From Naegleria gruberi (Eukaryota), in assembly GCA_000004985.1 (NCBI GenBank), contig GG738908.1: DNA of 64,000 nt; one strand, 5' to 3'. Position numbers and translations under genes: made by a program. This document shows positions 38,013-40,829 of this stretch, one piece after another; within the stretch, counting starts at the first letter, position 1; each line of letters begins with the position of its first letter. A model generated the notes under the pieces. That model saw nothing but the letters and a program-made list of their open reading frames with translations. It had not been told where the DNA came from and made no database searches.

Positions 38013-40829
38013 ATGCAACAACATATACACGAGGTAACCATATCGGAAACTCCTCTTTCTTCAAACACAACTAAACGAAACTATGCCGATGCATACACTC
38101 TATCAGATGAGGAAATTCAACCAAGCACAATAGTTCCATCTCCCTTTCATTCAGAAACCCTATTTGTGATACAGAATGAAGAGTCGTACATGACTGGGAA
38201 ACCAACATACGAAACAATTAGAATAGAAAGAAGACCTCAATTATCTTTAACAGCACCAATAGCTAATCATGGCGACTCAAGAGGACATTTATCCTTAACA
38301 TCCTCAATAGTTTGCACACCAAAGAGTTTAGATGGTCATCATGCTCTAGACGAAACTTCAACAACCAGATATAATCATCAATGCATTACAACCATTGGTC
38401 AACCAACTCTTCATCACGAAACCAGTCAAATCTCCACTCAACTGACTCCTCCTGAAGAAAAGAAGGTCAAATATTCCTCCTTCTTCATCAAACTCTTCTC
38501 ATTTACCAACATTTTTATTCTAATGTTTATTGTTCAGGGATTAATAGGAGTTGGAACGGCCTTCATCTTGACAAACTCGTCAGTGAATCATGTTCTCGAA
38601 CACAGTCGACAATATCAAAGATTACAATTACAAGTTTACTTTAATTCAGAGTTACAAAAATTCATTTCACAAATTTCCTCAATGACCAACCACATTTCGA
38701 AACAAATGCAAAGATTTAACTTGAATGATAATTTGGCAATGATTAAGATGATTGACAGTATTGACACTGCTTACAACTCAAAGATTGGAGCAGGTGCTTA
38801 TAGGTGGGCCAGATTTGATGATTTTTACTTTGCGAGACAATTTAATGAAACTGTTGATGGTTATGTTGTAAGAGTGTACAATCCAATTGTTACAAATTTT
38901 AAATATTACAATGTCAGTAAGAATCAAATGTCAAAGGCACCTACTGGGAGTAAGATGGATGTTCATGAATATTTAAAAGGAATTTCTGTAGATCCGTATT
39001 ATGATGGAAATTCAACCTATTATCCAAAGAAACGAGAATATTATTTGCCATATGATAAGGGAAATCAATCTGCTACTGATATCATGTGGTCTAACAGTTG
39101 GGCTAATTTTAATGATGAGGTCGTGATTACATTGAGCATTCCAGTGTTTAGTAATTATTCGATGAGTTTCTTTAAAGAATCGAATAATTCTTATTTGATT
39201 CAAAACATGTTACATCCAAAATATATTTCCATTCCTAATGGACAACTTTCCAAGTATCCCTATTTGAAGAGTCCTCAATATTTATTTGGCGTCTTGAGTA
39301 TTCAATTCTCATGGGAATCAGCATCAAAAACTATTCTAAATGGTTCAAATTACGGGACAGATCTTCTTAAAACCAATGATGCGATGGAATACAGCATGAT
39401 AGTTGACTCGAAATATAACTTGATTGGTAAAAGCAATGAAAACAAATTATTGTCAACTATCCATCAGGTTCTAAAGGAAAGAAATTTGCTTTCTCTCCTT
39501 TCATCTCCCTGTGGAAACATGACAAGCAATATTACAGAATCAGAAATAACTTCCTATGGAACTGTTTTCTTTAAACTCAATTCTAAAAACTATGGAAAGT
39601 TAGTAACAGATGCAATTGAGGTTGAAATTGCTCCAATTTGTGACAAGTATGGAATTGATTGGTTCGTGGTGGTAGGAAATTACAAATCAGTAGTCTTGAT
39701 TCAACCGAGTCAAGTTCCAGATTTTGTTGTAACATTTGTACTTGTATTTGTTCTACAGGCAATATTTCTAGTATTTAGTGTTGTGAATATTAGATTGTCC
39801 TTCTCTGCTGTTAAGAATCAAGCTCTTTCAATACTAAAATTGGGAAATGAAAAGCAGATAAGTTCCAGAAATGCATTGGTAAGAATGTGGAACACGTTTA
39901 AATCGTTCTCATTCTTTGTGGATATTAGAGAAATGAAATCTAAATTATCTACCATTAGAAATGGACTCTCCACTTTCTCCAAATATGTTCCAGAACTCGT
40001 TGTGAAGGCATTCACAGAGAGGGATGGACCTTTTGATAAGATTAATTTGGCGCAAAGGAACATGACTATTCTATTCACTGAATTGGTTGGTTTTTCAGAG
40101 CTTTCACATGGCATTCATGATGATTTTCTTCCATGCCTTATGACTAATTATTTCACGATTGTTTCAAAGGCAGTCAAAGAGGAGGGAGGTATGATTACCC
40201 AATTTATTGGAGATAGAGCTGTTTGTGTATTTAATGTTTATTGCCTTCCATTGGAAAATCATGAAATTAAGGCATGTAGGGCAGCTCTCAAAATAATGAT
40301 GAATATTGAGAATTTTAATAGAATTCATCTATCTGATTTGCAAGTTAGAGCTTCCATTACCTCTGATGAAAATATTCTTTGCGGAAATACTGGAAGCCAA
40401 TCGAGAATGAATGTTACTGTAATAGGTTCAAGTGTACCTATTGCTAAAGCTCTTCTATTCTTGAATAAGCATGTTGGAAAGAAAATTCTCATCCATGAAA
40501 AGACCTATCAGAAAGTTGTGGAAAATTTCGTTTGTAACTTTGTTGATTATGTTTGTTTTGAAGATTGCCATTTCCCAGTTTATAGCTTGGAAAGCATTTT
40601 TAGTTTACTAACAGAGGAGAAGGAAGAGATACATAATGCCTCATTTCAAGTAGAATCTGCCTTGTCAAAATGTGACTTTTCTTCAATTATTGATATTTGT
40701 AAAAAGTATGAAAGTAAGGATGAATCTCTAAAGAGAATGAGAAAAAGAGCTGAAACCCTTGAAAACGATTATTCAATGTGGAATTCTTGTGATGATTTCG
40801 ATTGCTCTTTTAAACTAAGAGTTAAATAA
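38013..40829 (+). CDS. Receptor-type class III adenylyl/guanylyl cyclase (TM - extracellular sensor domain - TM - cyclase)
   Basis: The cyclase domain begins MTILFTELVGFSELS and contains ...ITQFIGDRAVCVF..., matching class III CYCc motifs. There are two TM helices (FFIKLFSFTNIFILMFIVQGLIGVGTAFIL and FVVTFVLVFVLQAIFLVFSVV) flanking a ~370-aa ectodomain. ATG at 38013. Confidence 0.7.
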   Translation: MQQHIHEVTISETPLSSNTTKRNYADAYTLSDEEIQPSTIVPSPFHSETLFVIQNEESYMTGKPTYETIRIERRPQLSLTAPIANHGDSRGHLSLTSSIVCTPKSLDGHHALDETSTTRYNHQCITTIGQPTLHHETSQISTQLTPPEEKKVKYSSFFIKLFSFTNIFILMFIVQGLIGVGTAFILTNSSVNHVLEHSRQYQRLQLQVYFNSELQKFISQISSMTNHISKQMQRFNLNDNLAMIKMIDSIDTAYNSKIGAGAYRWARFDDFYFARQFNETVDGYVVRVYNPIVTNFKYYNVSKNQMSKAPTGSKMDVHEYLKGISVDPYYDGNSTYYPKKREYYLPYDKGNQSATDIMWSNSWANFNDEVVITLSIPVFSNYSMSFFKESNNSYLIQNMLHPKYISIPNGQLSKYPYLKSPQYLFGVLSIQFSWESASKTILNGSNYGTDLLKTNDAMEYSMIVDSKYNLIGKSNENKLLSTIHQVLKERNLLSLLSSPCGNMTSNITESEITSYGTVFFKLNSKNYGKLVTDAIEVEIAPICDKYGIDWFVVVGNYKSVVLIQPSQVPDFVVTFVLVFVLQAIFLVFSVVNIRLSFSAVKNQALSILKLGNEKQISSRNALVRMWNTFKSFSFFVDIREMKSKLSTIRNGLSTFSKYVPELVVKAFTERDGPFDKINLAQRNMTILFTELVGFSELSHGIHDDFLPCLMTNYFTIVSKAVKEEGGMITQFIGDRAVCVFNVYCLPLENHEIKACRAALKIMMNIENFNRIHLSDLQVRASITSDENILCGNTGSQSRMNVTVIGSSVPIAKALLFLNKHVGKKILIHEKTYQKVVENFVCNFVDYVCFEDCHFPVYSLESIFSLLTEEKEEIHNASFQVESALSKCDFSSIIDICKKYESKDESLKRMRKRAETLENDYSMWNSCDDFDCSFKLRVK

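What the first reader, a model, noticed from the sequence alone, without database searches (positions are those of the whole stretch)
38013..40829. Receptor-type class III nucleotidyl cyclase with an extracellular sensor domain
The topology is TM, a ~370-aa ectodomain, TM, then a cyclase domain. This resembles sensor-coupled cyclases and fits the large cyclase repertoire reported for Naegleria. The ectodomain shows no recognisable fold and could be a novel ligand-binding module.
Basis: partly seen in the sequence, partly recalled or inferred. Interest (0 to 1): 0.5.

Follow-up and report, generated by a model that had tools for sequence, protein, structure and literature searches.

The report
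Cache-domain receptor with degenerate cyclase domain
This Naegleria gruberi gene encodes a two-pass membrane receptor whose outside part is a divergent but recognisable bacterial-type double-Cache sensor, and whose inside part is a cyclase-like domain that has lost several residues needed to make cAMP or cGMP, so it is probably a pseudo-cyclase and not a novel sensor on a working enzyme.

Summary
The ORF at 38013-40829 (+) is real. It is identical to N. gruberi XP_002671086.1 (NAEGRDRAFT_73850, "predicted protein"). The topology is as described: TM1, a ~380-aa ectodomain, TM2, then a class III cyclase-homology domain (CHD).

Two parts of the interpretation fail.

2. Four of seven canonical catalytic positions are replaced: metal Asp to Glu690, Lys to Gln730, Asn to Pro809, Arg to Ala813. 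The same Arg-to-Ala change inactivates the homodimeric cyclase Rv1625c.

An exhaustive HMMER scan of 1.84 billion proteins finds only 15 relatives, all from Naegleria, Willaertia or unassigned metagenome contigs. Two Willaertia members keep the full class IIIb set (D-K-D-R-T-N-R). The other 13 are degenerate in different ways, so catalytic residues were lost repeatedly. The gene is still under purifying selection (pN/pS 0.08 against a metagenome allele).

Verdict: a new, lineage-restricted variant of a known architecture (dCache-TM-CHD), probably a pseudo-cyclase. Interest is modest.

The parts
38013..40829 (+). Whole gene: 938-codon intron-less ORF plus stop; = N. gruberi NAEGRDRAFT_73850 / XP_002671086.1 / D2VXS2
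   Evidence: Purifying selection against a 99.1%-identical metagenome allele: 13 synonymous vs 4 single-hit nonsynonymous changes, pN/pS 0.08, binomial p = 1.4e-6.
38013..38492 (+). Residues 1-160: cytoplasmic, S/T/P/Q/H-rich N-terminal region with no domain hit, poorly conserved (9-21% identity to relatives)
38493..38573 (+). TM1, about residues 161-187
   Evidence: hydropathy peak 2.38; continues as the long N-terminal helix of the ectodomain model
38574..39722 (+). Residues 188-570: extracellular divergent double-Cache (dCache_1-like) sensor domain: a long stalk helix plus two PAS-like alpha/beta modules, with large lineage-specific insertions
39018..39044 (+). Residues 336-344, Y-Y-P-K-K-R-E-Y-Y: the degenerate counterpart of the family's Y/F-x4-R-P-W-Y motif. 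Putative carboxylate-binding half of the distal-module pocket (mapping by motif analogy to PctA Y121/R126/W128).
   Evidence: motif definition from PMC8915833
39303..39305 (+). Gln431, at the position I equate with PctA Asp173 (amino-group ligand of amino-acid-sensing dCache_1). It is Gln in 11 of 15 family members and never Asp.
   Evidence: PMC8915833. The mapping is inferred, not made by superposition.
39723..39791 (+). TM2, about residues 571-593
   Evidence: hydropathy peak 2.81; helix 568-608 in the cytoplasmic model
39792..40046 (+). Residues 594-678: helical signal-transducing linker (TM2 extension, low-confidence loop, helices about 636-658 and 661-668). It contains the family motif Y/F-D-I-R-x-M (Asp637 invariant) and FSKYVP. 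The last ~40 residues align with the helical handle preceding the cyclase domain in OaPAC/bPAC.
   Evidence: No HAMP hit in any of 15 members.
40047..40598 (+). Residues 679-862: class III (IIIb-derived) cyclase-homology domain with a degenerate active site
   Evidence: Pfam 25.1 bits; PDB CyaB E = 1.2e-11; Foldseek CyaB TM 0.85, 2.4 A
40080..40451 (+). Span holding the seven canonical catalytic positions: Glu690 (metal Asp to Glu), Gln730 (Lys to Gln), Asp734 (kept), Arg779 (kept), Thr802 (kept), Pro809 (Asn to Pro), Ala813 (Arg to Ala). Lys812 sits one residue before the missing Arg.
   Evidence: Reference residues from PMC11533990 and PMC5967339.
40599..40826 (+). Residues 863-938: family-conserved C-terminal helical bundle (helices about 868-885, 889-899, 904-925; pLDDT about 86-92 over the helices), function unknown
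   Evidence: no Pfam hit

Best explanation
The gene encodes a two-pass plasma-membrane receptor. The N-terminus is cytoplasmic and disordered. TM1 leads into an extracellular, highly diverged dCache_1-type sensor. TM2 leads back in through a helical linker to a cyclase-homology domain (CHD) and a small C-terminal helical bundle. By analogy with bacterial dCache receptors, a small ligand binds the membrane-distal PAS-like module. The pocket keeps the Tyr/Arg/aromatic half that binds a carboxyl group in amino-acid sensors but lacks the Asp that binds the amino group, so I infer an organic acid or similar ligand and not an amino acid. The resulting helix displacement passes through TM2 and the linker to the dimeric CHD. 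The family descended from a canonical class IIIb adenylyl cyclase; two Willaertia members still have the full D-K-D-R-T-N-R set. In this protein, four of the seven catalytic positions are replaced (Glu690, Gln730, Pro809, Ala813). As a homodimer it is most likely unable to make cAMP or cGMP at a useful rate, which makes it a pseudo-cyclase. Its output is then non-enzymatic: conformational signalling through the CHD dimer and the conserved C-terminal bundle to unknown partners, or modulation of active cyclases by pairing with them. Shown here: ORF, topology, dCache fold, CHD fold, the substitutions, the family distribution, purifying selection. Inferred: ligand class, dimerisation, loss of activity, nature of the output.
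Against: No enzyme assay exists, so inactivity is an inference from residues. Asp to Glu at 690 is conservative. Gln at the Lys position need not abolish activity: a mycobacterial class III cyclase with a Gln/Asn pair is reported active (and my memory of Castro et al. 2005). Lys812 here, and Arg812 in N. lovaniensis, lies one residue before the missing Arg813, at i+3 from position 809 and so on the same helix face. It might partly substitute. Strong purifying selection is also what an active enzyme would show. The dCache assignment rests on a model built from only 15 sequences. Sequence profiles give one marginal dCache_1 hit (E = 0.003), and that hit was not reproduced on full-length sequences. 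The pocket-residue mapping to PctA is by motif analogy, not by superposition.
Confidence: 0.62

Rival explanations
1. It is a working receptor adenylyl (or guanylyl) cyclase. Ligand binding to the ectodomain switches a homodimeric CHD that catalyses cyclisation with non-canonical residues (Glu690 as metal ligand, Lys812 in place of Arg813, Gln730/Thr802 for base recognition).
For: The CHD fold is intact. Asp734, Arg779, Thr802 and the structural glycines are retained. Glu for Asp is conservative. A basic residue at 812 is shared with the N. lovaniensis orthologue. There is strong purifying selection. Ancestral family members are canonical class IIIb cyclases. A Gln/Asn-type class III cyclase is reported active.
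Against: Pro replaces the catalytically important Asn and Ala replaces the transition-state Arg. The equivalent R376A mutant of Rv1625c is inactive. The orthologue also lacks the second metal Asp (Gly) and the phosphate Arg (Thr). The CHD is less conserved than the sensor within the clade. The Pfam score barely clears the threshold.
Confidence: 0.18
2. It is the 'C1-like' half of an obligate heterodimer. It supplies the metal and phosphate ligands (Glu690, Asp734, Arg779) to a single composite active site. The purine-binding and Asn/Arg residues come from another CHD protein, as in mammalian membrane adenylyl cyclases or the Rv1625c D300A + R376A pair.
For: The substitutions are asymmetric. 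The metal/phosphate side is nearly intact, and the Lys/Asn/Arg side is destroyed. Individually inactive D300A and R376A mutants complement each other (PMC4821796). Many heterodimeric class III cyclases rely on such complementation (PMC8815786). Naegleria encodes at least 81 cyclases (PMC9928731). The N. gruberi paralogue 63463 shows a roughly opposite pattern: metal side S/E/C broken, Thr and Asn kept, Lys for Arg.
Against: No partner with a fully intact complementary half was found in the family in N. gruberi. Paralogue 63463 has Met for the purine Lys and Lys for Arg; paralogue 81707 is broken on both sides. The N. lovaniensis orthologue has lost the metal/phosphate side too (Gly734, Thr779), so the asymmetry is not conserved. 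Heterodimerisation could not be tested.
Confidence: 0.15
3. It is a decaying gene or annotation artefact with no function.
For: The catalytic site is degenerate. It has been annotated only as 'predicted protein'. No paper in the searched library mentions it.
Against: A 938-codon ORF is intact in two independent alleles with pN/pS 0.08. Orthologues and paralogues are retained in Naegleria and Willaertia genomes. Both halves are predicted to fold confidently.
Confidence: 0.03

Closest known systems
Bacterial dCache_1-linked class III adenylyl cyclases (e.g. M. tuberculosis Rv2435c, named in Upadhyay et al. 2016, PMC4822843)
   Same: TM, dCache ectodomain, TM, cytoplasmic CHD. The CHD is closest to bacterial class IIIb enzymes (CyaB, CyaC, bPAC/OaPAC). 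The ancestral family pattern is Lys + Thr, the adenylyl-cyclase type.
   Different: This protein is eukaryotic. Its ectodomain is ~380 aa with large insertions and escapes the Pfam dCache_1 model. The catalytic Asn and Arg, the purine Lys and one metal Asp are replaced. It has an extra conserved C-terminal helical bundle and a ~160-aa disordered N-terminus.
N. gruberi dCache_1-cyclases D2VLR9 (894 aa) and D2V3A4 (745 aa), listed in the supplement of PMC4822843
   Same: Same organism and same domain logic (dCache_1 + Guanylate_cyc), described there as a 'bacterial-type adenylate cyclase'.
   Different: They are different genes. Their Cache domains are recognised by the profile (E about 1e-7). 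They were not recovered by the exhaustive phmmer search with this ectodomain, so they are at best distant relatives.
dCache_1 chemoreceptor ligand-binding domains (McpX 6d8v, PctD 7prq, PctA 5t65/9koo, Tlp3 4xmq, Mlp24 6iop, TlpQ 6fu4)
   Different: 8-14% sequence identity. About 100-140 extra residues. The output is a CHD and not an MCP signalling domain. The amino-group-binding Asp173 of the amino-acid-sensor subclass is Gln.
Mammalian membrane adenylyl cyclase C1/C2 pseudo-heterodimer and the Rv1625c D300A/R376A complementing mutants
   Same: CHDs that lack part of the catalytic set and are inactive alone. This protein resembles a C1-like half: metal side kept, Asn/Arg side lost.
   Different: There is no fused or identified complementary partner. 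The membrane anchor is a 2-TM dCache receptor and not a 6-TM bundle. The orthologue has lost both halves.
Degenerate GGDEF/EAL receptors of bacteria (e.g. LapD, FimX), from my own knowledge and not tested here
   Same: Analogy only: nucleotide-cyclase-type output domains that lost catalysis but are retained as signalling or binding modules in transmembrane receptors.
   Different: Unrelated at the family level (GGDEF/EAL versus class III CHD). No evidence here for nucleotide binding.

Membership tests
Class III nucleotidyl cyclase (Pfam PF00211, cyclase-homology domain) | Significant match to the CHD profile and the beta-alpha-beta-beta-alpha-beta fold | tested here: met
   Pfam 25.1 bits vs GA 21.9. 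PDB CyaB E = 1.2e-11. Model vs CyaB TM 0.85, 2.4 A; CyaC and Cya2 TM about 0.8.
Class III nucleotidyl cyclase (catalytically competent homodimer) | Two metal-binding Asp residues | tested here: not met
   The first is Glu690 (aligned to OaPAC D156). The second, Asp734, is kept (aligned to D200).
Class III nucleotidyl cyclase (catalytically competent homodimer) | Transition-state-stabilising Asn and Arg on helix alpha4 | tested here: not met
   Pro809 aligns to OaPAC N273. Ala813 is at the Arg position (CaAC N573/R577 spacing). VPIAKALL here vs VNLASRLE in CyaB. R376A in Rv1625c is inactive.
Class III nucleotidyl cyclase (catalytically competent homodimer) | Purine-specifying pair: Lys + Asp/Thr for ATP, Glu + Cys for GTP | tested here: not met
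   Gln730 + Thr802. The canonical family members have Lys + Thr (class IIIb adenylyl-cyclase pattern).
Class III nucleotidyl cyclase | Dimerisation and measurable cyclase activity | not testable with these tools
   No multimer prediction or assay was available.
dCache_1 (Pfam PF02743; Cache superfamily) | Match to the dCache_1 sequence profile | tested here: not met
   No hit for this protein at E <= 1. One of 15 isolated ectodomains hits at E = 0.0031, and this is not reproduced on full-length sequences at E <= 0.1. A family profile against PDB finds no Cache chain.
dCache_1 (Pfam PF02743; Cache superfamily) | Fold: long N-terminal helix followed by two tandem PAS-like alpha/beta modules | tested here: met
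dCache_1 (Pfam PF02743; Cache superfamily) | Extracytoplasmic location between two TM helices, upstream of a cytoplasmic signalling domain | tested here: met
   Hydropathy, charge distribution and sequon distribution. The output domain is C-terminal, as stated for dCache_1 proteins in PMC8915833.
dCache_1AA (amino-acid-sensing subclass, Gumerov et al. 2022) | AA_motif Y121, R126, W128 (carboxyl) + Y144, D173 (amino group), PctA numbering | tested here: not met
   By motif analogy: Y336, R341, Y343 (Trp to Tyr), W363 (Tyr to Trp), Q431 (Asp to Gln). The Asp173 position is never Asp in the 15 members. D173A abolishes binding in PctA. The mapping was not verified by superposition.
CHASE domain | Best structural or sequence match to CHASE sensors (e.g. 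AHK4) | tested here: not met
Periplasmic-binding-protein-type ectodomain (trypanosome receptor cyclases) | Venus-flytrap PBP fold and a single TM | tested here: not met
   Two TM helices. The top structural matches are described as Cache, tandem-PAS or chemoreceptor/histidine-kinase sensor domains and none as a PBP. The one exception by name, 5ere ('extracellular ligand-binding receptor', 540 aa), aligns over only 222 residues, and its domain content was not checked.
HAMP linker | Match to the HAMP profile between TM2 and the output domain | tested here: inconclusive
   No HAMP hit in any of 15 members. The model shows a low-confidence helix-loop-helix (pLDDT 44-72) that neither proves nor excludes a degenerate HAMP.

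The most novel reading that the evidence does not exclude
This vahlkampfiid-specific family may be a natural series of a receptor cyclase turning into a pseudo-enzyme. Catalytic residues were lost independently in nearly every lineage, while the sensor, linker, CHD fold and C-terminal bundle stay under selection. In the most novel version, N. gruberi 73850 (metal side kept, Asn/Arg side lost) and paralogue 63463 (metal side lost, Thr/Asn kept) form an asymmetric heterodimer with one composite site and two different dCache sensors. That would be a protist re-invention of the C1/C2 asymmetry of animal membrane adenylyl cyclases. Alternatively, the dead CHD has become a nucleotide-binding or protein-docking output module.
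Probability: 0.12. Interest if true: 0.6.

Novelty: new variant of a known kind. Interest (0 to 1): 0.3.

Why it matters
It corrects two tempting annotations. The ectodomain is not an orphan fold but a very diverged dCache sensor, which adds to the few Cache receptors known in eukaryotes outside the alpha2-delta/CACHD1 type. The 'cyclase' should not be counted as an enzyme in the large Naegleria cyclase repertoire without an assay. The 15-member family has both canonical and variously degenerate CHDs on the same receptor scaffold, and paralogues in the pathogen N. fowleri. It is therefore a compact system for asking what a cyclase-homology domain does once catalysis is lost, and which ligands free-living amoebae sense through Cache domains. 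This is incremental and not field-changing.

Tried and rejected
(1) The word-indexed homology search with the protein found only its own 99% cluster. With the family profile it added only generic bacterial AAA/TPR cyclases, so that route was a dead end. The exhaustive HMMER scan was needed.

(2) NCBIfam: no hit.

(3) The family ectodomain profile against PDB sequences gave only insignificant hits to SLM4 and CodY. Sequence-level detection of Cache failed.

(4) From the very tight gene spacing and a metagenome-only first hit, I briefly considered a giant-virus or unknown-eukaryote origin. I rejected this: the tubulin is 100% identical to N. gruberi and the protein matches XP_002671086.1 exactly.

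(5) No paralogue lies in the 64-kb window (tblastn).

(6) CHASE and periplasmic-binding-protein ectodomains were rejected on the structural ranking.

(7) HAMP: not detectable and left open.

(9) Amino-acid-sensor (dCache_1AA) membership was rejected because Gln replaces Asp173.

(10) No complementary catalytic partner was found within the family; no clean C2-like partner exists.

(11) Literature search for the gene identifiers: none found.

(12) I could not obtain the D2VLR9 or D2V3A4 sequences to compare directly.
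Full report
**Observation**

The window carries one uninterrupted ORF of 938 codons at 38013-40829 on the + strand. Its translation is identical, residue for residue, to the annotated N. gruberi protein XP_002671086.1 / EFC38342.1 / UniProt D2VXS2. That is NAEGRDRAFT_73850, named only 'predicted protein'.

The window is N. gruberi nuclear DNA:
- The beta-tubulin at 30018-31364(-) is 100% identical to the N. gruberi protein and 89% to N. fowleri.
- The neighbours are typical eukaryotic signalling genes: BTB, RGS, RWP-RK, FF, WD40, EGF/Jacalin.
- A 5.2-kb ENA metagenome contig (ERZ929261) is 99.1% identical to 35752-40979 and carries a second allele of the gene.

**Topology**

Hydropathy gives two strong peaks, at about residues 161-187 and 571-593. 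Basic residues lie on the N-terminal side of TM1 and the C-terminal side of TM2. Ten of the 14 N-x-S/T sequons fall in the ~383 residues between the helices.

**Cyclase-homology domain**

- Pfam Guanylate_cyc matches residues 682-835 at 25.1 bits, just above the gathering score of 21.9. NCBIfam has nothing.
- phmmer against PDB sequences gives P. aeruginosa CyaB (E = 1.2e-11), OaPAC and bPAC (about 1e-10), Cya2 and CyaC. I recall these as class IIIb-type bacterial cyclases.
- An AlphaFold model of residues 560-938, built with the family alignment, has pLDDT 78.2. It shows a confident beta-alpha-beta-beta-alpha-beta core at 679-862.
- That core superposes on CyaB with TM-score 0.85 and 2.4 A rmsd.

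The domain is real.

**Catalytic residues**

Literature anchors:
- OaPAC metal ligands Asp156 and Asp200, and Asn273 (PMC11533990).
- CaAC D457/D501 (metals), position 497 (Lys in adenylyl cyclases), 566 (Asp), N573 ('catalytically important'), R577 (transition state) and R545 (gamma-phosphate) (PMC5967339).

I walked the HMMER alignment numerically and used the family alignment. The query has:

| Canonical role | Residue here | Status |
|---|---|---|
| Metal Asp 1 | Glu690 | replaced |
| Purine Lys | Gln730 | replaced |
| Metal Asp 2 | Asp734 | kept |
| Phosphate Arg | Arg779 | kept |
| Purine Thr/Asp | Thr802 | kept |
| Transition-state Asn | Pro809 | replaced |
| Transition-state Arg | Ala813 | replaced |

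The helix that reads VNLASRLE in CyaB reads VPIAKALL here. The corresponding R376A mutant of the homodimeric class III cyclase Rv1625c is described as inactive. It regains activity only when paired with a D300A partner (PMC4821796).

Caveats:
- Glu for Asp is conservative.
- A Gln/Asn-type mycobacterial cyclase is reported active (and my memory of Castro et al. 2005).
- Lys812 here, and Arg812 in the N. lovaniensis orthologue, lies on the same helix face one residue before the missing Arg.

**Family**

The word-indexed search of 5.8 billion proteins found only the protein's own cluster. An exhaustive phmmer scan of 1.84 billion cluster representatives, using residues 150-640, found just 15 proteins with E <= 0.001. 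All are 747-1061 aa. Every one with an assigned source comes from vahlkampfiid amoebae:
- three N. gruberi genes (73850, 81707, 63463);
- three N. fowleri genes;
- one N. lovaniensis gene, C9374_009204, on the same contig as the tubulin orthologue C9374_009184;
- seven Willaertia magna genes;
- one unassigned ENA contig.

Fourteen of the 15 hit Guanylate_cyc in Pfam, with a best E of 2e-22. None hits HAMP.

In the alignment only two Willaertia proteins (KAL9656023.1 and KAL9656696.1) have the complete D-K-D-R-T-N-R set, the Lys/Thr adenylyl-cyclase pattern. The other 13 are degenerate, each in a different way.

A neighbour-joining tree with bootstraps puts this gene in a 100%-supported clade with the N. 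lovaniensis gene (E-Q-G-T-S-T-N, broken on both halves of the site) and the ENA protein (D-K-D-K-S-N-K, nearly canonical). The canonical Willaertia proteins nest among degenerate Naegleria ones. Catalytic residues were therefore lost repeatedly.

**Is the gene maintained?**

Against the metagenome allele there are 13 synonymous and 4 single-hit nonsynonymous differences, plus one multi-hit codon. That gives pN/pS = 0.08, and a binomial p of 1.4e-6 against neutrality. So the gene is under purifying selection and is not a pseudogene.

Conservation by region is informative:
- Against its two closest relatives, the ectodomain is 42-43% identical and the CHD 31-39%.
- Against the canonical Willaertia members, the order is reversed: CHD 38-39%, ectodomain 24%.

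Within this clade the sensor is more constrained than the 'enzyme'.

**Ectodomain**

Pfam finds nothing in this protein. Among the 15 isolated ectodomains, one gives a marginal dCache_1 hit (E = 0.0031), and this was not reproduced on full-length sequences. A family profile against PDB sequences finds no Cache chain.

The family consensus, however, contains Y/F-x4-R-P-W-Y ... W-S/T-x-x-F/Y-x-N ... I-x-L-x-I-P-x-Y ... L-x-G-V-x-G-x-Q-L ... F-I-x-N-S-x-G-x-x-I-A. I recognised this as dCache_1-like.

An AlphaFold model of residues 183-572 with the 15-sequence alignment has pLDDT 77.2 and pTM 0.77. It shows a 50-residue N-terminal helix followed by two alpha/beta modules.

- Foldseek against PDB returns only dCache domains, or proteins containing them, in the top 50: Tlp3, PctA/B/C, Mlp24, TlpQ, TlpA/C, McpX, CtaA, a histidine-kinase sensor and human alpha2-delta-1. 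E starts at 2.8e-7, probability is 1.00, and the alignments span the whole model.

The ectodomain is a highly diverged, insertion-rich dCache domain, not a novel fold. dCache_1-cyclase architectures are already recorded for Naegleria, but for other genes: D2VLR9 and D2V3A4 (supplement of PMC4822843). These were not retrieved by the exhaustive search.

**Ligand pocket (inferred)**

The amino-acid-sensing subclass of dCache_1 is defined by PctA Y121/R126/W128 (carboxyl group) and Y144/D173 (amino group). D173A abolishes binding (PMC8915833). By motif analogy, this protein has:

| PctA position | Residue here | Note |
|---|---|---|
| Y121 | Tyr336 | kept |
| R126 | Arg341 | kept |
| W128 | Tyr343 | Trp in most relatives |
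| Y144 | Trp363 | aromatic in all members with a residue there |
| D173 | Gln431 | Gln in 11 of 15, never Asp |

It is therefore not a dCache_1AA member. The retained Tyr/Arg/aromatic half suggests a carboxylate-bearing ligand. This mapping was not checked by superposition.

**Linker and C-terminus**

TM2 continues as a helix to about residue 608. It is followed by a low-confidence loop and by helices at about 636-658 and 661-668. These align with the helical handle of OaPAC/bPAC and carry the invariant Asp637 and the FSKYVP motif. After the CHD comes a confidently predicted, family-conserved helical bundle (868-925) with no database match.

**Mechanism**

Best supported, at about 0.6: a dimeric dCache receptor that transmits ligand binding through TM2 and the linker to a CHD that can no longer cyclise nucleotides as a homodimer. 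Its output would be non-enzymatic, or would act by pairing with active cyclases.

Rivals:
- An active non-canonical cyclase (about 0.18).
- An obligate C1-like heterodimer subunit (about 0.15). The asymmetric loss pattern, and the roughly complementary pattern in paralogue 63463, support this. The N. lovaniensis orthologue, broken on both halves, and the lack of a clean partner weaken it.
- A dead gene (about 0.03).

**Novelty**

The architecture (dCache-TM-CHD) and the idea of catalytically incomplete CHDs are both known. The following appear undescribed:
- a fast-evolving family, found so far only in vahlkampfiid amoebae, whose Cache domain escapes profile detection;
- most of its members, including this one, having lost catalytic residues while remaining under selection.

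No paper in the searched library mentions the gene. This is a new variant of a known kind, of modest interest.

Noticed in passing
window 30018-31364 (-): This beta-tubulin is 100% identical to an N. gruberi 'beta-tubulin' but only about 63-67% identical to canonical beta-tubulins of other eukaryotes, and 89% to N. fowleri FDP41_010497. It is a divergent Naegleria tubulin, possibly the mitotic type (my recollection; not checked).
   Followed up: partly
window 35752-40979 vs L001 (ENA ERZ929261, contig k127_460197, 5232 bp): A metagenome contig from project PRJEB11402 is 99.1% identical over 5.2 kb (32 mismatches, 10 gap openings). An N. gruberi-like amoeba was therefore present in that sample. 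It provided a second allele for the selection test.
   Followed up: yes
window 51366-57833 (-): A 2155-aa ORF with a Jacalin-like lectin domain and EGF / teneurin-type EGF repeats. It looks like a large extracellular adhesion- or lectin-type protein.
   Followed up: no
window 44678-45916 (-), 19622-21274 (+), 10293-12308 (+), 13965-17162 (-): Other signalling or regulatory genes nearby: an RGS-domain protein (68 bits), an RWP-RK transcription-factor-like protein (81 bits), a PF09820 'predicted AAA-ATPase' protein and a 1065-aa VWA-domain protein. Nothing indicates a functional link to the receptor.
   Followed up: no
window 40447-40448 region (codons 812-813); N. lovaniensis P0123 equivalent: Both this protein (Lys812) and its N. 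lovaniensis orthologue (Arg812) have a basic residue one position before the missing transition-state Arg813. It is i+3 from position 809, so on the same helix face. This might be a shifted, partly compensating residue.
   Followed up: partly
window 39921-39923 (Asp637), 40272-40277 (Ala754-Cys755), 40533-40547 (Cys841-Asp845), 40599-40826: Family-specific conserved motifs with no known role: Y/F-D-I-R-x-M in the linker (Asp637 invariant), A-C-x-A-A-L, F-x-C-Y-F-V-D after the cyclase core, and the C-terminal helical bundle with A-T-D-x-Q-K-K-I. These, and not the catalytic residues, are what the family conserves.
   Followed up: partly
window 40829-40852: Only 22 bases (40830-40851) separate the stop codon of this gene from the end of the convergent 572-aa S/N/Q-rich ORF (40852-42570, -). 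The 3' UTRs must overlap or be extremely short. The window as a whole is very gene-dense and shows no evidence of introns in the long ORFs.
   Followed up: no
window 39818-40114 (-): A 98-aa antisense ORF lies inside the linker/CHD-coding region. It has no support and is probably a chance ORF.
   Followed up: no
Family alignment A1 / tree: In the window gene's clade, the unassigned ENA protein P0124 keeps a nearly canonical catalytic set (D-K-D-K-S-N-K) yet groups with the fully degenerate N. lovaniensis gene (99% bootstrap). Glu690 and Gln730, shared by the N. gruberi and N. lovaniensis proteins, are therefore either convergent or the tree is distorted by rate differences.
   Followed up: partly
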